From the NCBI GenBank assembly GCA_937904525.1, contig CALEKX010000112.1:13811-77810 (forward strand): DNA of 64,000 nt. The letters run 5' to 3'. This stretch comes from an uncultured Phycisphaerales bacterium. Its GTDB lineage: Bacteria > Planctomycetota > Phycisphaerae > Tepidisphaerales > Tepidisphaeraceae. Positions within the stretch are counted from its first letter, which is position 1. Each line of letters begins with the position of its first letter. Below, in pieces: positions 12,805 through 29,333 of the stretch. A program made the position numbers and the translations under genes. The notes beneath the pieces are model-generated. The model had not been told where the DNA came from. It was given only the letters and a program-made list of their open reading frames with translations, and did no database searches.

Positions 12805-12824
12805 CCCCTGAACGGAGGAGACAC

Positions 12825-14042: not shown

Positions 14043-14067
14043 TGCAACGCGACATCGCGACGAATCA

Positions 14068-14126: not shown

Positions 14127-14133
14127 TGGATTG

Positions 14134-14260: not shown

Positions 14261-14283
14261 TATATTTTGATACAATCCCCCTC

Positions 14284-15867: not shown

Positions 15868-15950
15868 TAATCTCCGCCTTGAGATCTGCGTTCATCCGCG
15901 TTCATCTGGGGCCCTCAGATCGCGCACGTGCGGCACGCCCGTGCCACAAT

Positions 15951-15990
15951 CTTCTGTCTTCTGTCTTCTGACTTCTGGCTTCTCGCCTCA
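15951..15990 (+). repeat. CT-rich short-period repeat (TTCTGTC/TTCTGAC words)
   Basis: CTTCTGTCTTCTGTCTTCTGACTTCTGGCTTCTCGCC lies between convergent genes. A related tract is at 47996-48040. Confidence 0.6.
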
Positions 15991-16461
15991 CCCCCGATGC
16001 GACATCATCCGCCGCACGTTGCGGTCCTGTTCGCGGCGCTTGATGCTCTCGCGCTTGTCGAACTGCTTCTTGCCGCGGGCCACGCCGATCTCGATCTTGA
16101 CCTTCCCCTCCTTGAAATAGGCAGCCAGCGGGATGAGCGTCACACCCTTGGTCTTGGTCTGCTGTTCAAGCTTGCGGATCTCACGGCGATGGGCCAGCAG
16201 CTTGCGCGTGCGGTTGGGGTCGTGGTTCCAGGCAAGCGTCGCCTTCTCGTAGGGGTCAATGTGCATCTGGTAGAGGAACAGCTCGCCCCCTTCGACCCGG
16301 GCGAAGGCTTCCTGGAGCGTGGCTTTGCCCTGCCGCAAACTCTTGACCTCCGAGCCGGTCAGCGCAATGCCGCACTCGAGCTTGGCATCGATGTGGTAAT
16401 CGTGCATCGCCCGGCGGTTATGGATGCGCGGCGCCCAGTTGGGATGGTCCTTGCGAGCCAT
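15988..16461 (-). CDS. smpB: SsrA-binding protein
   Basis: MARKDHPNWAPRIHNRRAMHDYHIDAKLECGIALTGSEVKSLRQGKATLQEAFARV...KLLAHRREIRKL...KGVTLIPLAAYFKEGKVKIEIGVARGKKQFDKRE. I trimmed the track ORF to the internal ATG at 16461. Confidence 0.9.
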   Translation of the reverse strand: MARKDHPNWAPRIHNRRAMHDYHIDAKLECGIALTGSEVKSLRQGKATLQEAFARVEGGELFLYQMHIDPYEKATLAWNHDPNRTRKLLAHRREIRKLEQQTKTKGVTLIPLAAYFKEGKVKIEIGVARGKKQFDKRESIKRREQDRNVRRMMSHRG

Positions 16462-16645
16462 AGCACCGATCATACGCCCCGGCTGGCAAATTGACCATGC
16501 CCCCCGCGTTGCGGCTTGCGACCGCCTGCCCCCTCCAACTGGCTCGCCAGCGCCTTCGCGAAGTCCCCGCAGGAACTCGATTTGCCGTTCGAAACGTCGC
16601 ACCGCTTTCAGCCCCGCCCGAGAATGCGTAGAATCGCCCCCCTGT

Positions 16646-17395
16646 ATGGTTGAATTGGGAGTCAACATCGATCATGTGGCGACGCTCCGCCAGGCGCGTC
16701 GCACCTATGAGCCCGACCCGGTCTGGGCGGCTGTCGAGGCACAGCTCGGCGGCGCCGACGGCATCACCTGCCACCTGCGCGAAGACCGCCGGCACATCCA
16801 GGATCACGACATCGAGCGGATCCGGACCATGTGCCACGTCAAGCTCAATCTGGAGATGGCCGCCACGGAGGAGATGGTCGCCATCGCCCTGCGCGTCAAG
16901 CCTAACCTCTGCATGTTCGTGCCCGAGGGCCGCCAGGAGATCACGACCGAAGGCGGGCTGGACGTTGTCGGCCAGCGCAAGCATCTCAAGGACGTGGTGG
17001 CCCGGCTGAAGGATGCCGGACTGACCGTCAGCGCCTTCATCGATGCCGAGCTGCCGCAGATCGAAGCCGCGGCTGAGGTGGGGTTTGACGTGTGCGAGGT
17101 GCACACCGGCCCGTACGCAGCCGTCTTCCACCAGACCGGCGGCGACCTGGACAAACCGCAACTGGCAGCCGAGCTGCGCAAGATCATGGACGCCGGCGAC
17201 GCCATCCGCAAAGCCGGCATGCGCTTCAACGCCGGTCACGCCCTCAACTATGTCAATGTGCACCACGTGGCCGCCCTGCCGGGGTTGCGCGAGCTGCACA
17301 TCGGGCACGCCATCGTCAGCCGCGCCGTCTTCACCGGCCTGCGGCAGGCCGTGCGCGAGATGAAGCAACTGATCAATGCCAATCCGAAGGAGTAA
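16646..17395 (+). CDS. pdxJ: pyridoxine 5'-phosphate synthase
   Basis: MVELGVNIDHVATLRQARRTYEPDPV...ADGITCHLREDRRHIQDHD...LNLEMA...CMFVPE...EVHTGPYA...FNAGHALNY. Trimmed to the ATG at 16646. Confidence 0.9.
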   Translation: MVELGVNIDHVATLRQARRTYEPDPVWAAVEAQLGGADGITCHLREDRRHIQDHDIERIRTMCHVKLNLEMAATEEMVAIALRVKPNLCMFVPEGRQEITTEGGLDVVGQRKHLKDVVARLKDAGLTVSAFIDAELPQIEAAAEVGFDVCEVHTGPYAAVFHQTGGDLDKPQLAAELRKIMDAGDAIRKAGMRFNAGHALNYVNVHHVAALPGLRELHIGHAIVSRAVFTGLRQAVREMKQLINANPKE

Positions 17396-17398
17396 TGC

Positions 17399-18274
17399 AT
17401 GTTCAGCGGCGCGATGACAGCCCTGATAACCCCGTTCCGCGACGGCCGCGTGGACGAAGCCCGCTTCAAGCAGCAGATCGAGTACCAGATCTCAGCCGGA
17501 ATCGATGCGCTCGTGCCGGTCGGCACGACCGGCGAATCGCCGACCCTCTCCTTCGAGGAGCATGTGCGCGTGCTGGAGCTGGCCGTCCAGGCCGCCAACG
17601 GCCGCGTGCCGGTCATCGGCGGAACCGGCGCCAATTCCACAGCCGAGGCCGTTGAACTGCACCAGCATGCCAAAAAAGTCGGCTGCGCCGCCGGCCTGAG
17701 CGTCAATCCCTATTACAACAAGCCGTCGCAGGAAGGCCTTTACCGGCACTTCATGACCATCGCCGACAGCGTCGACCTGCCGATCGTGCTCTACAACATC
17801 CCAGGCCGCACGGGCATCACCATGAGCCCGCAGACGGTCGAGCGCCTCGCGAAGCATCCCAACATCGTCGCGATCAAGGAAGCCACCGGCTCGATCGACA
17901 TCGCGACCGAGATCCGCGCCCGCTGCGACATCACCGTCATCAGCGGCGACGACGGCATGACGCTGCCGCTCATGGCCATCGGCGCAACCGGCGTCATCAG
18001 CGTGCTGTCCAACCTCATGCCGCGCGAGGTGTGCCAGCTCACCAAGCTGGCAGCCGCCGGCAAGCTCGATGAGGCCCAGAAGCTGCATGTTCGCCTCTTC
18101 GGCCTGATTCGCGCCCTGTTTGTCGAAGGCAACCCTGTCGGCATCAAGGCTGCGATGAAGCTGGCGAACATGGACAGCGGCGAGCTGCGCCTGCCGCTTT
18201 GGCCGGCCAGCGAGGCGACCGTCCAGTTGCTCCAGGAGCAGATGCAGCGCGTCGCCGCCCCGATGGGAGTTTGA
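17399..18274 (+). CDS. dapA: 4-hydroxy-tetrahydrodipicolinate synthase
   Basis: ALITPFRDGRVDEARFKQQIEYQISAGIDALVPVGTTGESPTLSFEEH...LYNIPGRTG...AIKEATG. Confidence 0.92.
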   Translation: MFSGAMTALITPFRDGRVDEARFKQQIEYQISAGIDALVPVGTTGESPTLSFEEHVRVLELAVQAANGRVPVIGGTGANSTAEAVELHQHAKKVGCAAGLSVNPYYNKPSQEGLYRHFMTIADSVDLPIVLYNIPGRTGITMSPQTVERLAKHPNIVAIKEATGSIDIATEIRARCDITVISGDDGMTLPLMAIGATGVISVLSNLMPREVCQLTKLAAAGKLDEAQKLHVRLFGLIRALFVEGNPVGIKAAMKLANMDSGELRLPLWPASEATVQLLQEQMQRVAAPMGV

Positions 18275-18284
18275 GGCGCCGCCG

Positions 18285-19838
18285 ATGACCCACCTGTGCG
18301 TTGCCATCTTCGCCACCAGCGTCGAACAGGTCCGCCGTGACACCACCGCGGCTGCCGAAGCCGGCGCGGATCTGGTCGAATTGCGCGTCGACAACATCGA
18401 GGATGCCCAGACCATCCGCCAGATGGTGCAGGCCTCGTCGCTGCCGGCGATCGTAACCTGCCGGCCGACCTGGGAGGGCGGCCACAGCACCCTCTCCGAC
18501 AGCCAGCGCATCGCGCTGCTGCGCGACGGTGCCTCCGGCCTGGCAGCCTATGTCGATGTCGAGCTGCGCGCGATGCCATCGATCGCTGCCTTCTCCCCCC
18601 AGCCACGCGAGCAGCGCACGGGCATCATCGCCTCCAGCCATGATTTCACCACGCGGCCCGATCGCCTGTGGAATATCGTGGCTGAGCTTAATGCGTCGCC
18701 CGCCGACATCTCCAAGATCGTCTGGTCCGCCCGCAATATCCGCGACAACCTCGAAGCCTTCGAGATCCTGCAGAACCGCAGCAAACCGACGATCGCCCTG
18801 TGCATGGGCGAAGCCGGTGTGATCTCCCGCATCCTGGCGCGCAAATTCGGCGCATTCCTCACGTTCGCGTCGCTGACCAGCGATGGCGGCACGGCGCCTG
18901 GGCAGGTGAGCGTCTCGGACATGAAGCGCCTGTACCGCTGGGATGCGATAGGCCCAGAGACGAAGGTCTACGGCGTCGTGGCGGACCCCGTCGGGCATTC
19001 GATGTCGCCAGCCATCCACAATGCGGCGTTTGACGCGATCCACTACGACGGCGTCTATCTGCCGCTGCTGGTGCAGGGGACGTACGAGAGTTTCAAGGCG
19101 TTCATGGAGACGTTCCTGGCCTTCGAGCGGCTGCATCTGTCGGGGCTGAGCGTCACGATCCCGCACAAGCAGCACGCGCTGCGGTACCTGCGCGAAAAAG
19201 GCCATCGCGTCGAGCCGCTGGCGGAGGCGATCGGCGCGGTCAATACGATCGCGATCTCACGCGACGGTGGGCGAATTTCGCTGTACGGGTTCAACACGGA
19301 TTACGCGGCCATTCTCGACAGTATCACGGCTGCGCTGGACATCCGCCGCGAGGATCTGGCCGGGAGGCGCGTGGCCGTTATCGGCGCCGGCGGCACGGGA
19401 AGGACCGCCGTCGCCGCCCTGGCCAAGTATGGTGCGACCGTCGAGGTCTACAACCGCACGCTTGAGCGGGCTGAGGCGCTGGCGGAGGAATTCAACGGCA
19501 AGACGGGCGAGGTGTCAGCCAAGCCCATGGAAGACCTCCCCCGCGGCGGCTGCTCGATCTACCTCAACACGACCAGCGTCGGCATGCATCCGCATACCGA
19601 TGTCACGCCGTTCGGCGATGCCGAGCCGCCCTTCGACACGAATACGCTCGTGTTCGACGCCATCTACAACCCGACGCGCACCCGTCTGCTGGAGCTGGCA
19701 GAGAAAGCCGGCGCCAAGACGATCAGCGGCGTGGAGATGTTCGTCCGCCAGGCCGTCGGCCAGTTCGAGGCCTGGACACGCCAGCCGGCGCCGGTGGACG
19801 TGATGCGGCGGGTGATCGAGTCGCGCCTTCGCAAGTGA
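18285..19838 (+). CDS. aroDE: bifunctional 3-dehydroquinate dehydratase (type I) / shikimate dehydrogenase fusion
   Basis: N-terminal half is DHQase-like (CVAIFATS...ADLVELRVD...IVTCRPTWEGG...SSHDF). C-terminal half is AroE (YGVVADPVGHSMSPAIHNAAF...LSVTIPHK...NTD...VIGAGGTGRTAV). Confidence 0.85.
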   Translation: MTHLCVAIFATSVEQVRRDTTAAAEAGADLVELRVDNIEDAQTIRQMVQASSLPAIVTCRPTWEGGHSTLSDSQRIALLRDGASGLAAYVDVELRAMPSIAAFSPQPREQRTGIIASSHDFTTRPDRLWNIVAELNASPADISKIVWSARNIRDNLEAFEILQNRSKPTIALCMGEAGVISRILARKFGAFLTFASLTSDGGTAPGQVSVSDMKRLYRWDAIGPETKVYGVVADPVGHSMSPAIHNAAFDAIHYDGVYLPLLVQGTYESFKAFMETFLAFERLHLSGLSVTIPHKQHALRYLREKGHRVEPLAEAIGAVNTIAISRDGGRISLYGFNTDYAAILDSITAALDIRREDLAGRRVAVIGAGGTGRTAVAALAKYGATVEVYNRTLERAEALAEEFNGKTGEVSAKPMEDLPRGGCSIYLNTTSVGMHPHTDVTPFGDAEPPFDTNTLVFDAIYNPTRTRLLELAEKAGAKTISGVEMFVRQAVGQFEAWTRQPAPVDVMRRVIESRLRK

Positions 19839-19956
19839 ATAGCCGCGAAGGCGCGAAGCGATTGGCGTAGGGTATGTGGACGTCAACCGGCCCCATGCAA
19901 CAAGCCCCATACCCCGGCCAATGGCCATCGCTGCGCGAACGGTTACAATACGATCC

Positions 19957-20397
19957 GTGGCCGCCAACGTGACATTTTCCGCTGAGACACTGCTCCGCGA
20001 AGCCGGGCTGAAGCGCACGCCTGTGCGCCTGGCTGTTCTGGAGCTGCTTGCCGGCATGCACACGCCCCTGGCGGCTCAGCAGATCCTCGACGCTCTCCCA
20101 GCCAGCACGGATTCGGTCACGGTCTATCGCACGCTCAACACACTGACCGAACACCGCCTGCTGCACCGCATCCGCGGCGATGATCGCGTTTGGCGCTATG
20201 CCCTCAGCGACAGTGAGCCGCAATCCCCCCGCCACGATCACGCCCACTTCGTCTGCGAATCGTGCGGCAGCGTCGAATGCCTGCGCGATGTGCCCATCCC
20301 CCGCAAGCTGATGCAGCAGGTGGCACCCGATCAGCAGTACCGGGTGAAGTACTCAGAACTGCTGTTGCATGGGGTGTGTCCAAGGTGTCAGTCCTGA
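19957..20397 (+). CDS. Fur-family metalloregulator
   Basis: LREAGLKRTPVRLAVLELLAG...VYRTLNTLTEHRLLHRI...HAHFVCESCGSVECL...HGVCPRC. Start is uncertain. GTG 19957 sits 7-8 nt after a TACAAT box (19944-19949). Alternatives are ATG 19921 or GTG 19876. Confidence 0.75.
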   Translation: MAANVTFSAETLLREAGLKRTPVRLAVLELLAGMHTPLAAQQILDALPASTDSVTVYRTLNTLTEHRLLHRIRGDDRVWRYALSDSEPQSPRHDHAHFVCESCGSVECLRDVPIPRKLMQQVAPDQQYRVKYSELLLHGVCPRCQS

Positions 20398-20429
20398 TCA
20401 GCGACGAAGGGCGAGGGCGCGCGTCGCCT

Positions 20430-20472
20430 GTTGCCTGTTGACGTCGGCTGACGGTGGTGGTCAACAAACAAC
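20430..20472. terminator. hairpin between the convergent fur-family and FtsK-like genes
   Basis: GTTGCCTGTTGAC (20430-20442) against GTCAACAAACAAC (20460-20472), 11 of 13 complementary. Confidence 0.3.
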
Positions 20473-20498
20473 ATGCACCCAGCCACACGGCTGCGGCA

Positions 20499-23400
20499 TC
20501 ACGCCTTCTTCTGCAGCTTCTCGCCAACCTCCTGCAGCCACTGTGCATCCGGCAGTGCGTACGGCCGGAACTTCTCCATCATGCCCTGCTCTTCGCTGTA
20601 GGCCAGCGCACGGAAGAAGCCGAGCTTGTTGGCGGCTGGGGAGTCAATCAGGTTGCTCGAATCGGCTGCGCTCATCTGGAACAGAATGCGGTTGTCGAAC
20701 TCACGCATGCTGCTGCGTTCGATCGTCCGCTCCACGGCGGCCGGCGTGTCGCACCAGGCGATCACATGGATGCCGACGCCCGGACCGTCGCGCAGCAGAT
20801 CGGCAAACTGCTTGTCCGGCTGAGGCGGCTTCTCCGCGTCATCCAGCGAGAAGCTGAAGCCCTCCTCGCTCTTGCGGAGCACGCGATATCGCTGCAAGCC
20901 GTAGATGACCAGGTAGATCGTCGGCGCGTCAGGATCGTCCTGCTCCTGCCGGCGGGCAAGTTCCCTGGCCAATTCATCGATCGCTTCAGCCGTCTGGCGG
21001 TACTCTACCCGCTCGACCTGTTGCGGAATCACCGCCGCGACCTGCTCCAGCCGGCCGGCGAGGTCCGAATCCGCCGGCGTCCCATCCATGAGCACGAAAC
21101 GCGCCCGGTCTTTGCCGTGCTGCGCCGCCAGCGAGATCATCGAGACGCCAATGATCGCCATCGCCTGCTCGTCCTGCTGGCCGATGATGAGCATGTTGGC
21201 TCCGGGCTGACGGCGGAACGGCACAGCCGTCGGCTCCTTGATCGCCACCGGCTCGCCCAGCCACGCGCGCGGCGGGCCATCGAGGCGAGCGCCATCGAGC
21301 GCTTCGGCCAGCAGCCGATTCCTGCGGACATCGGCTGGGACATTCCCCTCGAACACAATCGGCTCGGGCACGCGAACGCCCTGCTGCTTTGCCCGATCTT
21401 GCACCTGCTCGAGGAACACATCCCGCTGCTCATCCGGCAGCCAGGCCACCTGGAACGGGCTGTTGCCCTCGACCAGGCCCCCGGCGTCGTTGTAGATCGC
21501 CTCGCCCGGACGCGACAGCAATCGCGCAGCCGAGTTGTTGTCACCCAGGATGAGCTGCGAATCGGCTTCGCTGGTCTGCAGGGCGATGCGCACCGCGATC
21601 TGGCCGATCGTGCTGCGCGACAGGCCGGATGATCCGGCGATCGTCTGTGAACCCAGCAGCACGTGAATGCCGAACGCACGGCCCTGTCGCACCAGGCGAT
21701 CCAGCAGCACGGCTGCGTCCTGAGCGAGTTTGTCGTCTTCGCTGAAGAACTCCTGGAACTCGTCGATGATCAGCACTGTCCGCGGCATGACATCGCCGGG
21801 CACTTCGCGACGGTAGGAGGCCAGATCCTGCACCCCGACCTTTCGGAACAGCTCGCCGCGCCGCGTCAGCTCCGCGTCAATCCGCTGGAGCACGCTCAGG
21901 CCGAACTCACGATCCGACTCCACCGCGATCGCCCGCGCATGCGGCAGGCTGTGCGTGGCGTACGTCTTGAACTCGACGCCCTTCTTGAAGTCGACCAGAT
22001 ACAGCTCGACCTGATCGGGCGAATACCACATCGCCAGGTTCGTGACGATCGCATGCAGCAATGTCGACTTACCCGAACCGGTCTTACCGGCGATCAACGC
22101 ATGCTGGGCGACGCCCTTGCCCAGGCGCAGATGCTGCTGGCGCGTCGCGCCCATGCGGCCGACGGCGACGCTCAGCTCGCTGCTGCTGTCCAGCGACCAG
22201 AACTGCTCCGGCTTGGGCGCGATGGCTGTGAACGGCACCTCGACCCGCTTGGATTCCTTGGCATGCCGGCCGACGACATCGAGCATCTGCGTCAGCGTCT
22301 GCTCCGACGGCGGCGGATCGAGCTTCAGCGGGAACTGCTGGAAGACCTCGTCTCTCCAGACGAACCGGCCATTTTCGCGAACGAGGTTGATGCTGTGCTG
22401 CTCCAGCTCGTCGATGTGCGTGCCGCTGGGCAGCGGCGTGCGCAGGTCGCGCAGCACGAGCGTATACACGCCGCAGCGGGCACCCGAGCTGGCGATGCTC
22501 GCCAGGCGCCGGAAACTGTCGCCTTCGAAACCGACGGGGAAGTCGGCGATCACCAGGAACCGATACGGCTCGGCGAGTTCGCCGGCCTGCGCGTTGTACT
22601 CGTCGATCGTCTCGAACTCGTTGCGCAGGTACTTCTGGATGACCGTCTCCATGTGCTCGGTCAGATCAGCCAGCCGCTGCTCGATATGCTCCGATTCGGT
22701 CCAGATGCGCGAGCCGACGAGGGCTTCGTCGTGATCGGCCAGGTGCATGAAACCGGCGAAGTTCTGTCCCAGGCCGACGGGATCGATGATCGTAAAGCGC
22801 ACGCGTCCCGCCGGCAGGCTGGTCAGCAGGCGCGACATCACCATGCGCAGCGTGTCCAGCGCCTCGGGCCGGCCCTCGCGATCCGTATGGATCAGCAGCG
22901 ACGAATGCCGCGGGAACGCCAGCCCGGCTGGCAGCGAAAAGGCCTCGGGCAGGCGAAGGCTTCGCGGCAGCTTGTCGGTGATGCGCTGCAGATCGACCTG
23001 CAACTCGCCAAATCGGACGGTCTGCGCGAACCGCTGCGGCGGCTGCCACGTGTTCCAGTCGGTCTGCTCCCAGCGGAGGATCGCGCGACCATCAGATGAG
23101 CCGGACTGGTGGATCGGATCGGCGATTTCCGCAAGCCCCGTGTCCCACCGTTGCTGCAGGGCTGCGCGGGCCTGAGCGTACTGCTGCTCAGCCTCGGCAA
23201 TGGCCTGATCATGTCGCTCCTGGAACTCGCGCAGCTTACGCTCGCGACGCTGCTCGATCGCCTCGCGTGTCTGCGCCAGCCAGGCGTCGACCTCAGCCAG
23301 GGCCTTCTCCCGTTCAGCGGAGACGCGGGCACGGATCTCGTCGTACTGGGCCTTGGCCTTTTCGATGGCCTGGTCGTGGTGATGGCGTGCCTGGGCCCGG

Positions 23401-24425
23401 ACGGGGGCGAATTTCTTCTTGAGGGCGTCGATCTCGGCTTCGGTCTTGCGCTTCGACTCTGCGACGCGCGAATCGCGCTCGCGCGCCAGGTGATCGAGGT
23501 GCGCCTTGGCGGCGTTGCGTGTGGCGGTCAGCTCAGCCCGCAGCGGCGCGTAGGCCTGGCGGATCTGCGATCGGGCAAGGAACCGCAAGCCGATGGCGAC
23601 GACGACGAACGCCGCCAGTGCGATCCCGCCGACAATCGCCAGCCGCGAGATATCGGGCGGCCCTCCGCCGTCGGCGAGGTAGGTCCCGCCAACAGCCAAA
23701 CCGACGACCAGCACGCCGACGATCCACGGCGTCAGCCCGACGAACAGGCGCGGGATCGGCAGCGTGTCGAAGCGGCGCAGGGCGAGCTGCGCGGCTTGCA
23801 GATGCTTGTCGTACAGCTCGGCTGGGTCGCCTTCGAGTTTGATCTCCGGCGGGTGGGTCTGAGCCAGGCTGGTGGCGCCGTAGGTGTGCAGCAGCTCGGC
23901 GAGCTTGTTCTCCATGGCATCGAGCTGCTCGATGCGTTCGCCGTATTTCAGCTTGTCCTGCCTGGCATCCTCGCGAGCCTGGGCGACGGTGGCTTCGTGG
24001 ACGCTTTCAGCCAGCCATGCGGCCTGGTCGAACTGCTTTTTGACCTCACGCTCAGCAGATTGGAGCTCCAGATCGGCTGTAGCCTTGGCCCGGGCGAAGG
24101 CCTCGGATGCGGCCTTGAGCTCGGCATCGAACTTGGCTCCCAGATGGCTGGTGCGCTGCTCATGCTTGGCCTGGGCAGCCTGGGTTTGCTGGGCGATCTG
24201 CTGCTCGAGGACGATCCTGGCGGTCTTGAGATCGCTGCGGGCGGTCTCCAGGCGCTGCTGATGCTCCTGCTCGATGCGGGCTTCTTCCTCAGCCGCGGAG
24301 GTGGACAGATCGATCAGCGACCGCAGTGCGGCGCGCTGGACATCTCGGGGCGTGGCGGCGCCGTTGCCGGCTGGCTCGTCCGAGCCGATGGATTGAGGTT
24401 CCAGTTGGTCGTGCATATCAGTCAC
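20499..24425 (-). CDS. membrane FtsK/SpoIIIE-family ATPase with three tandem FtsK-like modules (EssC/EccC-like architecture)
   Basis: Walker A LIAGKTGSGKSTLLH (nt ~22065-22097) and Walker B TVLIIDEFQEF (nt ~21756-21776). Flanking degenerate modules: LLIHTDREGRPEAL/YRFLVIADFP and MLIIGQQDEQAMAII/IYLVIYGLQ. TM hairpin at aa ~226-284. Long Q/A/E/R-rich coiled-coil-like segments at aa 1-220 and 290-430. Start is GTG 24425 or ATG 24416. Confidence 0.85.
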   Translation of the reverse strand: MTDMHDQLEPQSIGSDEPAGNGAATPRDVQRAALRSLIDLSTSAAEEEARIEQEHQQRLETARSDLKTARIVLEQQIAQQTQAAQAKHEQRTSHLGAKFDAELKAASEAFARAKATADLELQSAEREVKKQFDQAAWLAESVHEATVAQAREDARQDKLKYGERIEQLDAMENKLAELLHTYGATSLAQTHPPEIKLEGDPAELYDKHLQAAQLALRRFDTLPIPRLFVGLTPWIVGVLVVGLAVGGTYLADGGGPPDISRLAIVGGIALAAFVVVAIGLRFLARSQIRQAYAPLRAELTATRNAAKAHLDHLARERDSRVAESKRKTEAEIDALKKKFAPVRAQARHHHDQAIEKAKAQYDEIRARVSAEREKALAEVDAWLAQTREAIEQRRERKLREFQERHDQAIAEAEQQYAQARAALQQRWDTGLAEIADPIHQSGSSDGRAILRWEQTDWNTWQPPQRFAQTVRFGELQVDLQRITDKLPRSLRLPEAFSLPAGLAFPRHSSLLIHTDREGRPEALDTLRMVMSRLLTSLPAGRVRFTIIDPVGLGQNFAGFMHLADHDEALVGSRIWTESEHIEQRLADLTEHMETVIQKYLRNEFETIDEYNAQAGELAEPYRFLVIADFPVGFEGDSFRRLASIASSGARCGVYTLVLRDLRTPLPSGTHIDELEQHSINLVRENGRFVWRDEVFQQFPLKLDPPPSEQTLTQMLDVVGRHAKESKRVEVPFTAIAPKPEQFWSLDSSSELSVAVGRMGATRQQHLRLGKGVAQHALIAGKTGSGKSTLLHAIVTNLAMWYSPDQVELYLVDFKKGVEFKTYATHSLPHARAIAVESDREFGLSVLQRIDAELTRRGELFRKVGVQDLASYRREVPGDVMPRTVLIIDEFQEFFSEDDKLAQDAAVLLDRLVRQGRAFGIHVLLGSQTIAGSSGLSRSTIGQIAVRIALQTSEADSQLILGDNNSAARLLSRPGEAIYNDAGGLVEGNSPFQVAWLPDEQRDVFLEQVQDRAKQQGVRVPEPIVFEGNVPADVRRNRLLAEALDGARLDGPPRAWLGEPVAIKEPTAVPFRRQPGANMLIIGQQDEQAMAIIGVSMISLAAQHGKDRARFVLMDGTPADSDLAGRLEQVAAVIPQQVERVEYRQTAEAIDELARELARRQEQDDPDAPTIYLVIYGLQRYRVLRKSEEGFSFSLDDAEKPPQPDKQFADLLRDGPGVGIHVIAWCDTPAAVERTIERSSMREFDNRILFQMSAADSSNLIDSPAANKLGFFRALAYSEEQGMMEKFRPYALPDAQWLQEVGEKLQKKA

Positions 24426-24434
24426 AGGTGTCTT

Positions 24435-24647
24435 TCACTGGCAGTCGTTACGGATGCGCGACAACAGCGCTGCCATCTGGTCCATGGCGCCGACGGCTGA
24501 CTTGACGTCTTTTTCCAGCGATTCGAGATACTTCTTTTCGAACTGTTCGGCGACAGCGTCGCTCCAACTACTCCGGGTCTCCTGCCAGCGGAGCATCAGC
24601 TCGCGTGTCGCCTTCGTCAGTCCGCCTCGACCTTCGTATACACCCAT
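24435..24647 (-). CDS. small helical-hairpin protein, WXG100-like (W-S-D turn)
   Basis: 70 aa: ...TKATRELMLRWQETRSSWSDAVAEQFEKKYLESLEKDVKSAVGAMDQMAALL. Two helices flank a W-x-D turn, followed by A..F as in WXG100 proteins. The ATG directly abuts the upstream TAA (TAAATG) in the same frame. Confidence 0.55.
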   Translation of the reverse strand: MGVYEGRGGLTKATRELMLRWQETRSSWSDAVAEQFEKKYLESLEKDVKSAVGAMDQMAALLSRIRNDCQ

Positions 24648-25361
24648 TTACGTGCTCCGGTGGTCGTTATTGCGTTGTTCGTCAGTTTGTGGCGATGGAG
24701 GGGACGCCTGCTGGGCGTTTTGTGTGTCGGATCCTTCATCGCCGGACGGTGATTTGTCGCCTTCGGCAGCGGGCGCGGGCTCGGATTGGGCAGCCGGCTG
24801 GTTTTCCTCGCGCGGGGCGCGACGCATGGACGGCTGATCGTCCGCCTGCGAGGTGGCCATCTCCGGTGCGGCAACGCCCTCTCCGGTCGCATACGCCTCG
24901 ATCCGCTGGATAATCGCCTCAAGGTCGTGTGCCGCCTGCGGAATGTCGGCTGAGACGATGCTGGCAATGCGCTGGACCTGGCCCTTGTACATCATCGCCT
25001 CGCGGCGCAGGTGCTGGGTGTACTTTTTGACAGCCAGGACCTTCTGCTCGGCTTCGGCAAGGCGGCGCAGGGCCAGTTGCAGGGCCTTTTGCTCATCGAT
25101 GTCCGACTGGCGGCCGCCGGTGGGGCTCTTGAAGATCTGCTTCTGGCGAAGGGCTTCCTTGGCACGCATGACGGCTTCCTGCCGTTTTCGCACCTCGCTG
25201 GCCCAGAAGGTGCGCTGCTCGTTCTCCAGCCACATCTGCACGCGGGAGATCTCGGCTTCGGCTTCGTTGAGGGCGACGCTGGCACTCTCCTGGAACTTCC
25301 ACAATGCCCGCTTGAACAGCTTGAGGGCTTCGATGGATTCGACTCGTGCGGATTCTGCCAT
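24648..25361 (-). CDS. helical protein with disordered P/Q/S/E-rich C-terminal tail, function unknown
   Basis: aa 1-160 is strongly helical/heptad-like (VESIEALKLFKRALWKFQESASVALNEAEAEISRVQMWLENEQRTFWASEVRKRQEAV...). aa 160-237 is low complexity. It sits between the two WXG-like genes. Confidence 0.6.
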   Translation of the reverse strand: MAESARVESIEALKLFKRALWKFQESASVALNEAEAEISRVQMWLENEQRTFWASEVRKRQEAVMRAKEALRQKQIFKSPTGGRQSDIDEQKALQLALRRLAEAEQKVLAVKKYTQHLRREAMMYKGQVQRIASIVSADIPQAAHDLEAIIQRIEAYATGEGVAAPEMATSQADDQPSMRRAPREENQPAAQSEPAPAAEGDKSPSGDEGSDTQNAQQASPPSPQTDEQRNNDHRST

Positions 25362-25392
25362 GGTTCAACCGCCCGTTCCCAGGACCATGAAC

Positions 25393-25425
25393 CCGTCGCA
25401 TGCGGCTAGAGCCGCTATCCGACGG
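25393..25425 (-). other. nested stem-loop just downstream of the 90-aa WXG-like gene
   Basis: On the + strand, CCGTCG (25393-25398) pairs with CGACGG (25420-25425), with an inner stem GCGGC-TAGA-GCCGC. No U-tract follows. It is a candidate mRNA-stability or partial-termination element inside the operon. Confidence 0.3.
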
Positions 25426-25439
25426 ACCAGGCAGCGGGC

Positions 25440-25712
25440 CTATCGCTGCTTGAGATACTCTTCCACGGCTGCGGCCTTCTTGTTGAGGGTCGCGACGTGC
25501 TGATGCGACGCCTCCAGGAAGTTGCTGAGCACCTTGACGGTTTGCTCAAAGGCTTCGCTGAACTTTTTCTGTTCCTGATCGCGCCAGCTCTGCTCCAGGC
25601 CGCGCATCTTGGCGTGCAGGGAGGAAATCAGACCCTGCAGGTCATTATTGAACCGGTTGAGGTCACCGGCGAATCGCCGCAGTTCGTTGGGGTCAACATG
25701 GGCCTTGGCCAT
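25440..25712 (-). CDS. WXG100-like (ESAT-6/EsxA-type) small protein, W-R-D in place of W-x-G
   Basis: 90 aa. MAKAHVDPNELRRFAGDLNRFNNDLQGLISSLHAKMRGLEQSWRDQEQKKFSEAFEQTVKVLSNFLEASHQHVATLNKKAAAVEEYLKQR. Length, the V.P.ELR.FA opening, the central W at aa 43 and the following F..F match the WXG100 helix-turn-helix pattern. GGAGG lies 6 nt upstream of the ATG. Confidence 0.65.
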   Translation of the reverse strand: MAKAHVDPNELRRFAGDLNRFNNDLQGLISSLHAKMRGLEQSWRDQEQKKFSEAFEQTVKVLSNFLEASHQHVATLNKKAAAVEEYLKQR

Positions 25713-25851
25713 CGGTACCTCCGTATAGCCGCCAGTTTACCGGAGGATCGATCCTGTGACGAGTTTGAGGCCCGTGAGCAAACTTGGAACGGTGATTCGC
25801 AACCGCCGACAATTTCAGTAAGATGCGCTCCCGCGCGGCGGGAACAGACCA

Positions 25852-27537: not shown

Positions 27538-28020
27538 GTGAAAGACCTGACCATCGGCCAACTCGCTGCCGCCGCTGGCGTTCCAACCTCAACCGTTCGC
27601 TTCTACGAGCGAGAGAAGCTGCTCACGCCCGATGCCCGCACCGGCGCGAACTATCGCGCCTACTCCGCTGCATCGCTGGAGCGTTTGAAGTTCATCCGCG
27701 CCGCCCAGGCGTCGGGGTTCGGGCTGAAGGACATCCGCGAGATGCTGGATCTCACCTACTCCGACGCGCCGCCGTGCGATGAAGTCGCCGCCCTGATCAA
27801 GCGGCGTCTCGTCGAGGTCAAGCAGAAGCTGCGCGAGCTGAAGCGCATCGACCGTGTGCTCAGCGTCGCCCTGCGCAGCTGCTGCCAGGGCGGCCCCGAC
27901 TGGTGCAACGAGATCGAGCGATTGAAGGGCAAACCCGCCTGCGACTGCCCGCCCAAAAAGAATCCGCGCAAAAAGGCCTTGACCTTGCACAAAGGTTCAA
28001 CCTCTACACTCCTGACGTGA
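27538..28020 (+). CDS. MerR-family heavy-metal-responsive regulator (ZntR/CadR/PbrR-like cysteine pattern)
   Basis: N-terminal HTH LTIGQLAAAAGVPTSTVRFYEREKLLTP...YRAY. Cysteines by my count at aa 80, 115, 116 and 123 (PPC...SCCQGGPDWC), plus CDC near the C-terminus. Confidence 0.8.
   Translation: MKDLTIGQLAAAAGVPTSTVRFYEREKLLTPDARTGANYRAYSAASLERLKFIRAAQASGFGLKDIREMLDLTYSDAPPCDEVAALIKRRLVEVKQKLRELKRIDRVLSVALRSCCQGGPDWCNEIERLKGKPACDCPPKKNPRKKALTLHKGSTSTLLT
27979..28010 (+). promoter_or_regulatory. candidate MerR-type promoter/operator: TTGACC, 20-nt spacer containing dyad ACCTT-N5-AAGGT, then TACACT
   Basis: -35 at 27979-27984, dyad at 27982-27996, -10 at 28005-28010. The over-long 19-20 nt spacer is the MerR-family hallmark. 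It lies inside the last codons of the regulator gene, upstream of the Cys-rich ORF. Confidence 0.4.
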
Positions 28021-28083
28021 CGATCGACTGGGCCCGCAACGTGCGTGGCCCGCGATCGCCGGAGTCTCACCGTGGAGGCTGTC

Positions 28084-28173
28084 ATGTGCGCGTCCCAAGA
28101 CGACTGCCCGTGCCCGGTTCCCTGCCCGCCGACCCCGTCCTGCCCGTGCGGCGATGGGTGCTGCGGCAAGTAG
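28084..28173 (+). CDS. unannotated 29-aa Cys/Pro-rich peptide, metallothionein-like
   Basis: Below the ORF-track size cutoff. ATG 28084 has GGAGG (28074-28078) 5 nt upstream. Translation is MCASQDDCPCPVPCPPTPSCPCGDGCCGK (8 Cys of 29), with TAG at 28171-28173. Confidence 0.5.
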   Translation: MCASQDDCPCPVPCPPTPSCPCGDGCCGK

Positions 28174-28180
28174 TTCGCAA

Positions 28181-28218
28181 AGCACCGGCGGTGCTCCGCG
28201 CCGCCGGTGCTGCCCTTT
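28181..28218 (+). terminator. strong hairpin between the Cys-rich ORF and arsC (attenuator or partial terminator)
   Basis: AGCACCGGCGG (28181-28191) pairs perfectly with CCGCCGGTGCT (28201-28211) and is followed by GCCCTTTCGG (weak T-tract). Confidence 0.4.
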
Positions 28219-28234
28219 CGGAAGTGAATCGATC

Positions 28235-28666
28235 ATGAGCAAAGCGAAGGTCCTGTTTCTCTGCACCGGCAACTCCTGCCGAAGCCAGATGGCGGAGGGG
28301 TGGGCCAAAGCGCTGAAGGGCGACACCCTCGACGCCTACTCCGCCGGCGTCGATCCGCACGGCATGAACGCCCGCGCCGTCCAGGCGATGGCCGAAGCCG
28401 GCGTCGATATCACTACGCATCACTCCAAGCACTTGGATGAGCTGAAGCACATAAAATTCGACTACGTCGTCACCGTCTGCGGCCATGCCCACGAGACCTG
28501 CCCCGTCTTCCCCGGCCAAACCAAGGTCGTTCACGTCGGTTTCGATGACCCGCCCAACCTCGCCAAGGACGCCAAGTCCGACGAAGAAGCGATGACCCAC
28601 TACCGGCGCGTCCGCGATGAAATCCGCACGTTCATCCAATCCATCGAACAAAGGCTTGACGCGTGA
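28235..28666 (+). CDS. arsC: arsenate reductase, LMW-PTP/thioredoxin-coupled type
   Basis: MSKAKVLFLCTGNSCRSQMAEGW (CX5R loop) and VVTVCGHAHETCP (resolving Cys pair). I trimmed the track ORF to the ATG at 28235. Confidence 0.88.
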   Translation: MSKAKVLFLCTGNSCRSQMAEGWAKALKGDTLDAYSAGVDPHGMNARAVQAMAEAGVDITTHHSKHLDELKHIKFDYVVTVCGHAHETCPVFPGQTKVVHVGFDDPPNLAKDAKSDEEAMTHYRRVRDEIRTFIQSIEQRLDA

Positions 28667-29333
28667 TCCGCCCCCAACTTTTCGCCGAGTTCCTCGGCAC
28701 CTTCGAACTCGTCTTCGCCCGGTGCGTGCTATGGTCGTCAATGATGTTCACGGCGGCGTCATCACCCACGCCGGCATCTCCATCGTTTGGGGCCTGGTGA
28801 TCATGGCCATGATCTACGCGATGGGCGAGGTCTCCGGTGCTCACTTCAGCCCTGCGGTCACGATCGCCTTCGCCATCAGCGGCTCGTTCGCGCCCAGAAA
28901 GATCGCGCCCTACGTTCTCGCCCAACTCGCCGGCGCAACCGCCGCCGCCGGCGCGTTGCGGCTGCTGTTCGGCATGACGGGAAACGTCGGCATCACCCAG
29001 CCGCACGGCCCGGTGATGCAGGCGTTCTGGATGGAACTGATCCTCACGTTCTTCCTGATGCTGGTGATCCTCTCCGTCGCCCGCGGCAGCAAAGTGCAAG
29101 GTCTGATGGCGGGCATCGCCATCGGCGCGACGGTGGGCCTGGAAGCGATGTTCGCCGGCCCGGTGTGCAATGCGTCGATGAACCCCGCCCGCTCGATCGG
29201 CCCGGCCATCGTCGCTGGGAACCTCAATCACCTGTGGCTGTTTATCGTCGCGCCCCTCCTCGGCGCTGCATTAGCGGTGCCCGCGTGGAAAGCATCCAGC
29301 CAGAGGTGTTCCTCCATTTCGCCATCGAGCTAA
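28663..29333 (+). pseudogene. NIP-type aquaporin (aquaglyceroporin/arsenite channel-like) with an apparent 1-nt deletion after TM1
   Basis: GTG 28663 overlaps the arsC stop (GTGA) and encodes VIRPQLFAEFLGTFELVFARC, a typical MIP TM1. The rest (AMVVNDVHGGVITHAGISIVWGLVIMAMIYAMGEVSGAHFSPAVTIAFA...NPARSIGPAI...) is in the -1 frame. Restoring one G in TGCG-TGCT near 28726 gives ...LVFARCGAMVV.... Confidence 0.6.

What the first reader, a model, noticed from the sequence alone, without database searches (positions are those of the whole stretch)
20499..25712. Minimal WXG100-like + FtsK/SpoIIIE-ATPase operon: a type VII-like secretion core in a planctomycete-type (diderm) genome
Four co-directional, tightly spaced minus-strand genes:
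1. A 90-aa protein with the length, opening (VDPNELRRFAGDL) and central Trp turn (W43-R-D, then F..F) of ESAT-6/YukE-type WXG100 hairpins.
2. A 237-aa helical protein with a disordered tail.
3. A 70-aa second hairpin protein with a W28-S-D turn.
4. A 1308-aa membrane ATPase with an FtsK/SpoIIIE P-loop (GKTGSGKST, VLIIDEF) and three tandem FtsK-like modules behind a TM hairpin. That is the EssC/EccC layout.

In Firmicutes and Actinobacteria, the pairing of WXG100 substrates with such an ATPase defines type VII secretion. Here none of the other known components is present (no EssA/EssB/EsaA, no EccB/D/E, no mycosin).

The surrounding genome carries outer-membrane-associated functions (porin, AsmA-like giant protein, PEP-CTERM proteins). 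If substrates are exported, an outer-membrane route would still be unexplained.

The locus sits between housekeeping genes (fur-family, hemL) with no mobile-element genes, so it looks native. I am not aware of an experimentally characterised system of this composition in this phylum.
Basis: partly seen in the sequence, partly recalled or inferred. Interest (0 to 1): 0.85.

Follow-up and report, generated by a model that had tools for sequence, protein, structure and literature searches.

The report
Planctomycete WXG100 plus FtsK-like ATPase operon
This is a real four-gene operon, conserved across the phylum Planctomycetota, that pairs small ESAT-6-like (WXG100) helical proteins with a membrane-anchored FtsK-like ATPase. 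This stripped-down relative of type VII secretion was already noted in comparative-genomics papers but has never been tested experimentally.

Summary
Four co-directional minus-strand genes lie exactly at the stated coordinates.

- **A (90 aa)** is a Pfam-significant WXG100 protein. Its closest solved relative is H. pylori HP0062.
- **B (237 aa)** is a confidently predicted long two-helix hairpin with a disordered tail.
- **C (70 aa)** is a divergent, N-terminally shortened WXG100 relative.
- **D (1308 aa)** has a coiled-coil N-terminus, a transmembrane (TM) hairpin, a very long helix, and three tandem FtsK-like modules. Only the middle module has a P-loop. [quoted passage not shown]

The A-B-C-D order is kept in about 61 of 66 informative loci from all planctomycete classes. 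The flanks vary and no other neighbour is conserved. The ATPase tree roughly follows taxonomy.

The core idea is not new. Zhang et al. 2012 (Biol Direct 7:18, Table 1 footnote 6) state that planctomycetes and other Gram-negative lineages have solo WXG domains with a distinct YueA-like ATPase whose three HerA/FtsK domains include only one active, middle, domain. Sutcliffe 2011 made a related point.

I did not find three things described before:
- components B and C;
- the membrane anchor with its long helices, which soluble proteobacterial relatives linked to the TerY phosphorylation triad (TerY-P) lack;
- the phylum-wide, apparently vertical conservation.

Secretion itself remains inferred. 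Interest is moderate.

The parts
25440..25712 (-). Gene A: 90-aa WXG100 protein of the HP0062 type. It has a W43-R-D turn and an invariant C-terminal E-E-Y86-L87-x-Q-R.
   Evidence: Pfam WXG100 41.7 bits against a gathering cutoff of 27.3. Full-length match to H. pylori HP0062 (3FX7/2GTS), E 5e-10. Exactly 90 aa in 57 of 60 homologues from related loci. Mean pairwise identity 55%. Motif counts.
24648..25361 (-). Gene B: 237-aa protein. A long antiparallel two-helix hairpin (residues 2-76 and 88-158) is followed by a disordered Pro/Gln/Ala/Glu-rich tail. A conserved L154-E-x-Y157 closes helix 2.
   Evidence: AlphaFold2 pLDDT of about 97 over residues 10-160; the tail scores below 60. Found directly between A and C in 65 related loci. 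No Pfam, PDB-sequence or Foldseek match beyond generic coiled coils. The tail length varies, giving proteins of 165-377 aa; 8 of 60 homologues carry a C-terminal Imm33-like domain.
24435..24647 (-). Gene C: 70-aa divergent WXG100-type hairpin that lacks the first ~15 residues of helix 1. W28 and D30 are invariant, and the penultimate Cys69 is nearly invariant.
   Evidence: The family profile's top PDB hits are S. aureus EsxA 2VRZ/2VS0 (E 4.4e-4) and 4LWS (E 0.012), with W28 aligned on the W of WxG. The C family model hits a Caballeronia WXG100 protein at E 1e-8. A jackhmmer search started from C recruits all A proteins. WXG100 is the only Pfam family hit repeatedly by family members, 10 of 70.
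20499..24425 (-). Gene D: 1308-aa membrane-anchored FtsK/SpoIIIE-type ATPase (an alternative ATG start lies 3 codons downstream).
   Evidence: Pfam FtsK_SpoIIIE 114 bits. NCBIfam best hits are EccCa, EccCb and EssC, all far below their cutoffs; FtsK scores only 24 bits. Full-length homologues of 40-64% identity occur across Planctomycetota.
23751..24425 (-). D residues 1-225: N-terminal cytoplasmic region rich in predicted helices and coiled coil, poorly conserved in sequence.
   Evidence: Mean pairwise identity 19%, but the length is conserved because the TM segments sit at about residues 205-285 in all 74 full-length homologues. Not modelled; the helical character is inferred from composition and from coiled-coil-type PADLOC hits.
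23571..23747 (-). D residues 227-285: TM hairpin of two hydrophobic helices joined by a ~10-residue loop (DGGGPPDISR).
   Evidence: Hydropathy scan and translation. Hydrophobic segments at the equivalent position occur in all 74 full-length family members.
23091..23570 (-). D residues 286-445: long helix continuous with the second TM helix (predicted stalk or coiled coil).
   Evidence: The AlphaFold2 model shows one helix from about residue 259 to 444, pLDDT mostly 70-80, falling to about 44-56 over roughly residues 375-415. Whether it is straight in the oligomer is unknown.
22221..23018 (-). D residues 470-735: first FtsK-like module (d0). It is degenerate, with no Walker A.
   Evidence: hhalign of d0 against d2 gives E 1.2e-4 over 158 columns; d0 against d1 gives E 0.08, in register. 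It has an alpha/beta fold in the model. Residues 446-735 find 1015 cluster representatives at E<=1e-30.
21426..22220 (-). D residues 736-1000: middle FtsK-like module (d1), the only one with Walker A (GKTGSGKS, nt 22065-22088) and Walker B (VLIIDEF).
   Evidence: A regular-expression scan finds a single Walker A, confirmed by translation. This module matches D1, D2 and D3 of EccC. Mean pairwise identity 70%.
20526..21308 (-). D residues 1040-1300: third FtsK-like module (d2). It is degenerate (GQQDEQAM replaces the P-loop) and is a candidate substrate receptor by analogy with EccC D3.
   Evidence: hhalign of d2 against d1 gives probability 92%, E 7e-7, over 199 columns. Foldseek aligns the three modules over the three ATPase domains of EccC 4NH0, 959 columns, E 1e-28. 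The receptor role is inferred only.
25713..25851 (.). 139-nt intergenic region shared with the divergently transcribed class-III aminotransferase (HemL-like) gene; presumed promoter region of the operon.
   Evidence: Position only. The sigma-70 consensus scan found no site. Inferred.

Best explanation
The locus is a planctomycete member of the 'solo WXG100 plus three-module FtsK/HerA (YueA-like) ATPase' systems. These are a stripped-down relative of type VII secretion, so far known only from comparative genomics.

**Shown here**
- A is a WXG100 hairpin of the HP0062 type.
- C is a shortened WXG100 relative.
- B is a ~160-residue two-helix hairpin with a variable C-terminal tail.
- D is anchored in the cytoplasmic membrane by a TM hairpin and has three tandem EccC-like modules. 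Only the middle module can bind and hydrolyse ATP in the canonical way.
- The four genes form a self-contained, vertically inherited cassette across Planctomycetota.

**Inferred mechanism**
1. D oligomerises at the inner membrane, probably as a hexamer like other FtsK/HerA ATPases.
2. A (as a homodimer or paired with C) and B assemble into elongated helical bundles. This resembles the heterotrimer of an LXG effector with its two Lap partner proteins in the Firmicute system T7SSb.
3. The conserved h-[ED]-x-Y motif, found at the C-terminus of A and at the end of helix 2 of B, docks onto a degenerate module of D. This would parallel the EsxB signal sequence binding to EccC D3.
4. ATP turnover in the middle module then drives export of the bundle, together with B's variable tail or domain, across the cytoplasmic membrane into the periplasm.
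5. How, or whether, anything crosses the outer membrane is unknown.
For: **Identity of the parts**
- A: Pfam WXG100 above the gathering score and a full-length match to HP0062.
- C: related to WXG100 proteins.
- B: a confident long hairpin.
- D: one Walker A and three homologous modules.
- D's model matches EccC (4NH0) over three domains at E 1e-28 and EssC at 1e-15 to 1e-18, against about 1e-10 for the single-domain hits to FtsK and TcpA.
- NCBIfam ranks EccCa, EccCb and EssC (93-123 bits) far above FtsK (24 bits).
- The TM hairpin is conserved in all 74 full-length homologues.

**Cassette**
- The A-B-C-D order holds in about 61 of 66 loci that have enough upstream DNA, from Phycisphaerae, Planctomycetia and Brocadiia.
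- No other neighbour is conserved within 7 kb on either side.
- B, C and D are packed tightly enough for translational coupling.
- The D tree roughly follows class taxonomy.
- The d0 module alone finds at least 1015 clusters at E<=1e-30.

**Literature**
- Exactly this ATPase architecture was described for planctomycetes (PMC3482391).
- In T7SSb, a long LXG helical domain plus two small WXG100-like partners form the presecretion complex (PMC9600955).

**Motifs**
- Y86 and L87 are invariant in A, and Y157 of B is conserved in 65 of 66 sequences, each preceded by an acidic residue.
Against: - No secretion data exist for any member of this kind.
- D fails the curated thresholds for EccCa, EccCb and EssC by a wide margin and has one P-loop where they have three.
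- No EssA/EssB/EsaA, EccB/D/E or mycosin-like partner, and no outer-membrane component, is conserved nearby.
- Proteobacterial relatives of D with the same three-module layout have no TM segment, so they are cytoplasmic. The WXG/FtsK pairing therefore does not imply secretion.
- The model places about 160 helical residues between the membrane and the first ATPase module. If that helix is extended, the motor would sit roughly 20 nm from the membrane, which is awkward for a directly coupled translocon.
- A is more conserved than D overall (55% against 43% mean identity). That looks more like a machine part than an effector.
- Neither A nor B carries a YxxxD/E motif.
Confidence: 0.5

Rival explanations
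1. Non-secretory, membrane-tethered remodelling machine. D is a cytoplasmic AAA-like motor tethered to the inner membrane by its TM hairpin and long coiled coils. A, B and C are adaptors, regulators or structural partners rather than cargo. The system would then serve an intracellular or envelope-proximal housekeeping role specific to planctomycetes, or a signalling or stress role like that of the soluble homologues linked to TerY-P.
For: - Soluble three-module homologues with the same WXG partner exist in proteobacterial TerY-P loci.
- D is the only membrane protein in the cassette, and its periplasmic loop is only ~10 residues long.
- Long helical segments flank the TM hairpin.
- A is highly conserved and fixed at 90 aa.
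- The cassette is phylum-wide, has no second copy of A, B or C within this 64-kb window, and appears vertically inherited.
- No outer-membrane partner is conserved.
Against: - The nearest characterised relatives in both sequence and fold are secretion ATPases.
- In every characterised WXG100 system, the WXG100 proteins are exported.
- Gaining a conserved TM hairpin relative to the soluble relatives suggests the membrane matters for function.
- B's variable C-terminal tail or domain resembles the carrier-plus-cargo design of LXG effectors (PMC9600955).
Confidence: 0.3
2. Mobile conflict or defence module. The cassette would be a horizontally spreading 'mobile version of T7SS' (the wording of Zhang et al. 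2012), delivering or controlling a toxin or anti-phage effector, as in loci linked to TerY-P.
For: - The literature's characterisation of this kind (PMC3482391).
- The Caballeronia plasmid locus places WXG, a coiled-coil protein with a C-terminal domain that looks PD-(D/E)xK nuclease-like (my reading of the sequence, not tested), small proteins and the FtsK ATPase among VWA/TerY, PP2C, kinase and CARF genes.
- Some B homologues end in an Imm33-like domain, a family named for polymorphic-toxin immunity proteins.
- The flanks differ between genomes.
Against: - In planctomycetes no toxin, immunity, integrase or defence gene is conserved next to the cassette.
- Here the flanks are housekeeping genes and GC content is unremarkable.
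- PADLOC gives only generic FtsK/HerA and coiled-coil hits.
- There is no counterpart on viral contigs.
- The D tree broadly follows taxonomy, and sequence divergence scales with taxonomic distance.
- B's tail here is low-complexity, not an enzymatic domain.
Confidence: 0.12
3. DNA translocase. D would be a divergent FtsK/SpoIIIE, TraB or TcpA-type DNA pump used in chromosome segregation, budding division or conjugation.
For: D hits the Pfam FtsK_SpoIIIE domain. FtsK and TcpA motor domains are significant sequence and structural hits for the middle module.
Against: - No FtsK gamma or other DNA-binding domain was detected.
- NCBIfam FtsK scores 24 bits against a cutoff of 1566.
- T7SS ATPases outrank DNA translocases by many orders of magnitude and align over all three modules.
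- D is strictly linked to WXG100 genes.
- Planctopirus limnophila has a separate canonical FtsK, 46% identical to the E. coli protein (PMC6952346).
Confidence: 0.04

Closest known systems
Solo-WXG plus three-module YueA-like FtsK/HerA ATPase systems of Gram-negative lineages (Zhang et al. 2012, Biol Direct 7:18, Table 1 footnote 6; Sutcliffe 2011). Examples are H. pylori HP0062/HP0066 and the WXG-FtsK module of TerY-P loci such as Caballeronia plasmid pSBC2-5.
   Same: - A ~90-aa WXG100 protein of the HP0062 type. The A family model hits the Caballeronia WXG100 protein at E 1e-25, and A matches HP0062 at E 5e-10.
- An ATPase with three FtsK-like modules and a single, middle, P-loop.
- A coiled-coil protein and a ~70-76-aa protein sit between the WXG gene and the ATPase gene.
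- Planctomycetes are named explicitly in the published description.
   Different: - The planctomycete ATPase is about 400 residues longer at its N-terminus. The extra region comprises a coiled coil, a conserved TM hairpin and a ~160-residue helix. The proteobacterial relatives examined have no TM hairpin.
- The planctomycete cassette stands alone, without TerY/VWA, kinase, phosphatase, nuclease or CARF neighbours.
- It appears vertically inherited rather than mobile.
- B is not demonstrably homologous to the 436-aa Caballeronia protein (E 0.06).
Type VIIb secretion system of Firmicutes (EssC with EsxA; LXG effectors with Lap1 and Lap2 targeting factors)
   Same: - WXG100 proteins are encoded next to a membrane-anchored ATPase with several FtsK-like modules and a two-helix TM anchor.
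- D's model matches EssC 4LYA and 5FV0 at E 1e-15 to 1e-18.
- C's profile is closest to S. aureus EsxA.
- A long helical-hairpin protein with a variable C-terminal part sits beside two small WXG100-type proteins, echoing the LXG-Lap1-Lap2 heterotrimer (PMC9600955).
   Different: - No FHA domains, and one P-loop instead of three.
- NCBIfam EssC scores 93.5 bits against a cutoff of 778.
- No EsaA, EssA, EssB or EsaB.
- No LXG or DUF3130/DUF3958 signature in B or C.
- No FxxxD or YxxxD/E motif.
- The host is diderm.
Type VIIa (ESX) secretion system of Actinobacteria (EccC with EsxA/EsxB)
   Same: - The best sequence and structural match of D is T. curvata EccC 4NH0 (E 4e-38 by sequence, 1e-28 by fold, over three tandem modules) and ESX-5 EccC5.
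- The partner genes encode WXG100 proteins.
   Different: - NCBIfam EccCa scores 123 against a cutoff of 509, and EccCb 109 against 347.
- No EccB, EccD, EccE or MycP.
- The WXG genes are not a bicistronic CFP-10/ESAT-6 pair.
- There is no YxxxD/E motif.
- Only one active ATPase module.
FtsK/SpoIIIE, TcpA and TraB DNA translocases
   Same: The middle module belongs to the FtsK/HerA P-loop fold.
   Different: - No gamma domain.
- Three modules, two of them degenerate.
- Obligate linkage to WXG100 genes.
- Much weaker similarity than to the T7SS ATPases.

Membership tests
Solo-WXG + three-module YueA-like ATPase systems (Zhang et al. 2012) | A stand-alone (solo) WXG100-domain protein encoded beside the ATPase | tested here: met
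   A is 90 aa and consists of the WXG100 domain alone (Pfam 41.7 bits against a cutoff of 27.3). It is found upstream of D in 61 related loci.
Solo-WXG + three-module YueA-like ATPase systems (Zhang et al. 2012) | [quoted passage not shown] | tested here: met
   A single Walker A at residues 780-787. d2 against d1 gives E 7e-7, and d0 against d2 gives E 1.2e-4. The model shows three alpha/beta modules that align to the three domains of EccC.
Solo-WXG + three-module YueA-like ATPase systems (Zhang et al. 2012) | Occurs in planctomycetes and other Gram-negative lineages | tested here: met
   At least 573 relatives in species-representative genomes. The best 80 are almost all Planctomycetota from three classes.
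Solo-WXG + three-module YueA-like ATPase systems (Zhang et al. 2012) | Mobile (the published wording is 'appear to be mobile versions of T7SS') | tested here: not met
   Housekeeping flanks, unremarkable GC content, no mobile-element genes, no viral counterpart, and a tree roughly congruent with taxonomy. This is a descriptive remark in the paper rather than a strict criterion.
Type VII secretion system (generic definition: WXG100 substrate + FtsK/SpoIIIE ATPase) | A WXG100-family protein | tested here: met
Type VII secretion system (generic definition: WXG100 substrate + FtsK/SpoIIIE ATPase) | A membrane-bound FtsK/SpoIIIE ATPase with several ATPase domains | tested here: met
   A TM hairpin plus three tandem modules, with EccC and EssC as the best structural matches.
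Type VII secretion system (generic definition: WXG100 substrate + FtsK/SpoIIIE ATPase) | ATPase-dependent export of the WXG100 proteins | not testable with these tools
   Needs secretome and fractionation experiments in wild type and a D mutant.
T7SSa (ESX) EccC | Meets the NCBIfam equivalog models EccCa (TIGR03924) and EccCb (TIGR03925) | tested here: not met
   123.5 bits against a cutoff of 509, and 108.7 against 346.6.
T7SSa (ESX) EccC | Three nucleotide-binding domains (D1-D3), each with a P-loop | tested here: not met
   Only one G-x4-G-K-[ST] motif; the flanking modules are degenerate.
T7SSa (ESX) | EccB, EccD, EccE and mycosin encoded with EccC | tested here: not met
   No conserved neighbour beyond A-D within 7 kb on either side in 80 loci. 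The window flanks are PdxJ, DapA, AroD/E, Fur, HemL, MerR, LMWP and MIP. The rest of the genome was not searched.
T7SSb EssC | Meets NCBIfam TIGR03928, and has N-terminal FHA domains | tested here: not met
   93.5 bits against a cutoff of 778.4. No FHA hit in Pfam; the N-terminus is coiled coil.
T7SSb | EsaA, EssA, EssB and EsaB encoded with EssC | tested here: not met
   Same evidence as for T7SSa.
FtsK DNA translocase | FtsK gamma (KOPS-binding) domain, and meets NCBIfam NF007615 | tested here: not met
   No gamma-domain hit. 24.3 bits against a cutoff of 1566.
WXG100 (Pfam PF06013), protein C | Scores above the Pfam gathering threshold | tested here: not met
   The window's C has no Pfam hit, and the best hit among 70 family members is E 0.0016. 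Homology instead rests on profile evidence: EsxA at E 4.4e-4 and a Caballeronia WXG100 protein at E 1e-8. C is therefore WXG100-like but not a Pfam-certified member.

The most novel reading that the evidence does not exclude
The cassette is not a reduced T7SS but a distinct machine that is ancestral to the phylum. In this reading, the single membrane protein D alone builds the whole apparatus. A hexamer would contribute 12 TM helices and 12 very long cytoplasmic helices, forming a stalk or conduit. That apparatus would handle a fixed trio of WXG-type helical hairpins (A, B and C). If D alone translocates folded helical bundles, it would be the minimal type VII-like translocon. It would also offer a direct handle on the unresolved question of what forms the T7SS channel. 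If it does something else, such as membrane remodelling or a role in the unusual planctomycete envelope, it would be a new use of the WXG/FtsK pairing.
Probability: 0.2. Interest if true: 0.8.

Novelty: new member of a known kind. Interest (0 to 1): 0.5.

Why it matters
- **A minimal model system.** If D really exports the WXG-type hairpins using one membrane protein and one active ATPase site, this would be the simplest type VII-like system known. It would be an attractive model for how folded helical bundles cross a membrane, and for how T7SS originated.
- **Scale.** The cassette is conserved across a whole diderm phylum: at least 573 species-level genomes and more than 1000 sequence clusters. 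It probably serves a core function in planctomycete cell biology that nobody has examined.
- **A caution for annotation.** The soluble proteobacterial relatives show that 'WXG100 plus FtsK' cannot be read automatically as 'secretion system'. This matters for genome annotation.

Tried and rejected
- **Anti-phage defence.** PADLOC gave only generic FtsK/HerA (SspH, mad8, HerA) hits and coiled-coil (LmuB, ZorA) hits, with nothing for B or C.
- **B by fold.** Foldseek against the PDB gave no hit below E 0.01, only generic coiled-coil hairpins such as SH3BP5, chemoreceptors, SMC arms and YscO.
- **B by sequence profile.** The search against PDB sequences returned chance MHC hits.
- **B related to A or C.** hhalign gave E 0.025 against A, an in-register but weak match to the WXG N-terminal helix, and 0.068 against C. 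This is not enough to claim homology.
- **B related to the 436-aa Caballeronia protein.** E 0.06, with high compositional bias, so rejected.
- **YxxxD/E export motif.** The window's B reads Y157-A-T-G-E161, but the +4 position is not conserved in the family, so rejected.
- **Phage or plasmid carriage of the planctomycete type.** None on viral contigs. The only plasmid hit for A was the Caballeronia TerY-P locus.
- **Promoter and terminator scans.** Uninformative.
- **The Ter-system paper (PMC4104200).** Not available.
- **The essential 'ftsK' of P. limnophila.** I checked whether it could be this gene. It is a separate canonical FtsK.
- **Other conserved neighbours.** All-against-all clustering of ORFs in 82 loci found none.

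Full report
**1. Observation**

| Gene | Coordinates | Length |
|---|---|---|
| A | 25440-25712 | 90 aa |
| B | 24648-25361 | 237 aa |
| C | 24435-24647 | 70 aa |
| D | 20499-24425 | 1308 aa |

- The B stop codon abuts the C start (TAAATG), C and D are 9 nt apart, and A and B are 78 nt apart.
- GC content across the locus (0.62-0.67) matches the rest of the window.
- On one side the flanks are PdxJ, DapA, a fused AroD/AroE and a Fur-family regulator. On the other they are a divergent class-III aminotransferase (HemL-like), a MerR regulator, a low-molecular-weight phosphatase and a MIP channel.
- A 1804-aa DUF748 protein lies at 39550-44964. DUF748 belongs to the AsmA-like clan (my knowledge of Pfam clans), which fits a diderm envelope.

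**2. The four proteins**

*A.*
- It scores 41.7 bits on Pfam WXG100, where the gathering score is 27.3.
- Its closest solved relative is H. pylori HP0062 (3FX7/2GTS), aligned end to end at E 5e-10. Bacillus EsxB and S. aureus EsxA follow.
- The turn reads W-R-D, as in HP0062, rather than W-x-G.

*C.*
- It has no Pfam hit on its own.
- A profile of 70 family members finds S. aureus EsxA as its top PDB hit (E 4.4e-4). The invariant W28 aligns on the Trp of the WxG motif. T. curvata 4LWS and S. agalactiae EsxA-like proteins come next.
- The family model hits a proteobacterial WXG100 protein at E 1e-8.
- A jackhmmer search started from C recruits every A orthologue.
- WXG100 is the only Pfam family hit repeatedly by individual members, 10 of 70.
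- C is therefore a divergent WXG100-type hairpin lacking about 15 N-terminal residues.

*B.*
- AlphaFold2 predicts a single long antiparallel hairpin (helices 2-76 and 88-158) at pLDDT of about 97, followed by a disordered tail.
- Foldseek, a PDB sequence-profile search and Pfam give nothing specific.
- B's length varies from 165 to 377 aa through its tail.
- Eight of 60 homologues end in an Imm33-like domain.

*D.*
- It has one Walker A (GKTGSGKS, residues 780-787).
- Profile-profile comparison shows that residues 1040-1300 are homologous to the active module 736-1000 (probability 92%, E 7e-7). Residues 470-735 are related to both (E 1.2e-4 and 0.08, in register).
- The AlphaFold2 model of residues 225-1308 (mean pLDDT 78.7) shows the first TM helix. 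The second TM helix then continues as one ~185-residue helix, followed by three alpha/beta modules.
- Foldseek ranks T. curvata EccC (4NH0; 959 aligned columns over three ATPase domains; E 1e-28) and EssC (4LYA, 5FV0) far above TcpA and FtsK (about 1e-10, single domain).
- Sequence searches agree. EccC scores E 4e-38 among PDB sequences. NCBIfam gives EccCa, EccCb and EssC 93-123 bits against 24 bits for FtsK, but all are far below the curated cutoffs.

**3. Conservation**

- Protein-database searches found 26 full-length homologues, named Phycisphaerae or Humisphaera borealis where named at all.
  - The best 80 are about 1300 aa long and 40-64% identical.
  - They come from Tepidisphaerales, Sedimentisphaerales, Phycisphaerales, Pirellulales, Gemmatales, Isosphaerales, Planctomycetales and Candidatus Kuenenia.
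- The degenerate first module alone finds 2409 cluster representatives at E<=1e-3 and 1015 at E<=1e-30. The best 150 nearly all have the ~1300-aa architecture.
- In about 61 of 66 loci with enough upstream DNA, the gene order is A-B-C-D (examples).
- A is 90 aa in 57 of 60 homologues, and C is 70 aa in nearly all.
- Clustering all ORFs within 7 kb on either side found no other conserved neighbour.
- Mean pairwise identities over 56 loci:

| Protein or region | Mean pairwise identity |
|---|---|
| A | 55% |
| B hairpin | 33% |
| C | 30% |
| D overall | 43% |
| D active module | 70% |
| D flanking modules | 47-52% |
| D N-terminus, TM hairpin and stalk | ~19% |

- All 74 full-length D homologues keep hydrophobic segments at the TM-hairpin position, and a neighbour-joining tree roughly follows class taxonomy.
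- No counterpart exists on viral contigs.

**4. Relatives outside the phylum**

- The only plasmid hit for A is on Caballeronia pSBC2-5.
- There, genes for a WXG100 protein, a 436-aa coiled-coil protein, proteins of 113 and 76 aa, and a 927-aa FtsK/SpoIIIE protein sit among VWA/TerY, PP2C, Ser/Thr kinase, CARF and AAA genes.
- The C-terminal part of the 436-aa protein looks like a PD-(D/E)xK nuclease. This is my reading of the sequence and was not tested.
- The A family model hits the Caballeronia WXG100 protein at E 1e-25. The Caballeronia ATPase aligns with all three modules of D at 27-33% identity, but it starts at about D residue 375.
- Its 120 closest relatives have one Walker A and no N-terminal TM hairpin.
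- The planctomycete ATPase is therefore a membrane-anchored branch of a wider family that also has soluble members.

**5. Literature**

- Zhang et al. [quoted passage not shown] - Sutcliffe 2011 extended WXG100 proteins to Cyanobacteria, Lentisphaerae, Proteobacteria and Verrucomicrobia, as cited in PMC6471051.
- HP0062 was noted to resemble ESAT-6 and to cluster with an FtsK/SpoIIIE gene (PMC3397514).
- Uchiyama et al. [quoted passage not shown]
- Full-text searches found no experimental work on the planctomycete system.
- The essential 'ftsK' of Planctopirus limnophila is a separate, canonical FtsK.

**6. Mechanism**

Shown:
- Two WXG100-type hairpins, one long hairpin with a variable tail, and a membrane-anchored, EccC-like three-module ATPase with a single catalytic site.
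- These are inherited together across the phylum.

Inferred:
1. D oligomerises at the inner membrane.
2. A, with or without C, and B form helical bundles. The best precedent is the heterotrimer of LXG, Lap1 and Lap2 that targets T7SSb toxins (PMC9600955).
3. A conserved hydrophobic-acidic-x-Tyr motif is the recognition signal for a degenerate module. It is present at the C-terminus of A (Y86 and L87 invariant) and at the end of helix 2 of B (Y157 in 65 of 66 sequences).
4. The middle module powers export to the periplasm.

Weaknesses:
- No secretion data exist.
- There are no accessory membrane or outer-membrane components.
- The relatives outside the phylum are soluble.
- A long helical spacer separates the membrane from the motor.
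- A is strongly conserved.
- There is no YxxxD/E motif.

The main rival is a membrane-tethered but non-secretory ATPase and adaptor machine. Mobile defence-module and DNA-translocase readings are less likely (see the rival explanations).

**7. Verdict**

- I did not find three things described before: the fixed four-gene composition (B and C), the membrane anchor with long helices that separates the planctomycete branch from soluble relatives, and the phylum-wide, apparently vertical inheritance.
- Function remains untested, and interest is moderate.

Noticed in passing
window 24435-24647 (-), residue 69 of protein C: The penultimate residue of C is a nearly invariant cysteine (65 of 71 homologues), preceded by Asp or Glu. 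A conserved C-terminal Cys in a small cytoplasmic helical protein is unexplained; a disulfide, metal binding or a modification are possibilities.
   Followed up: partly
B homologues such as P0054 (residues 228-321); also P0049, P0059, P0062, P0064 and P0087: A subset of B homologues (330-377 aa) carries a C-terminal Pfam Imm33-like domain (PF24719, E down to 7e-13) in place of the disordered tail seen in this window. It is the only recognisable 'cargo' domain on B.
   Followed up: partly
L084 (Caballeronia sp. SBC2 plasmid pSBC2-5, NZ_CP049321.1) 11267-24264: This is a TerY-P-type locus: VWA, WXG100 (89 aa), a 436-aa coiled-coil protein with a C-terminal domain that looks PD-(D/E)xK-like, proteins of 113 and 76 aa, a soluble 927-aa three-module FtsK ATPase, a DUF1887 CARF protein, VWA, PP2C, a Ser/Thr kinase and an AAA protein. 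It shows the same WXG / coiled-coil / small protein / ATPase core without any membrane anchor.
   Followed up: partly
window 23091-23747 (-), D residues ~259-444: AlphaFold2 models the second TM helix as continuing into one uninterrupted ~185-residue helix. Together with the ~225-residue coiled-coil N-terminus, this suggests a long stalk between the membrane and the ATPase modules. EccC and EssC have nothing similar.
   Followed up: partly
L043, L054, L081, L082 (no A, B or C upstream of D); L057 (C only): In about 5 of 66 loci with at least 6.5 kb of upstream sequence, the ATPase gene stands without the small genes. These may lie elsewhere in those genomes or may have been lost.
   Followed up: partly
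window 39550-44964 (+): A 1804-aa protein with Pfam DUF748 (E 1.7e-88). DUF748 belongs to the AsmA-like clan (my knowledge of Pfam clans).
   Followed up: partly
window 27538-29333 (+): A MerR-family regulator, a low-molecular-weight phosphatase (ArsC-like fold) and a MIP channel lie in a row. This may be a small metalloid-resistance cluster and is unrelated to the finding.
   Followed up: no
L080 (CALJZV010000426.1, labelled uncultured Verrucomicrobiales): One complete A-B-C-D cassette sits on a 7-kb contig from a metagenome-assembled genome labelled Verrucomicrobiales. It branches next to the main Planctomycetia clade rather than within it. This could be mis-binning or real presence outside Planctomycetota.
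   Followed up: no
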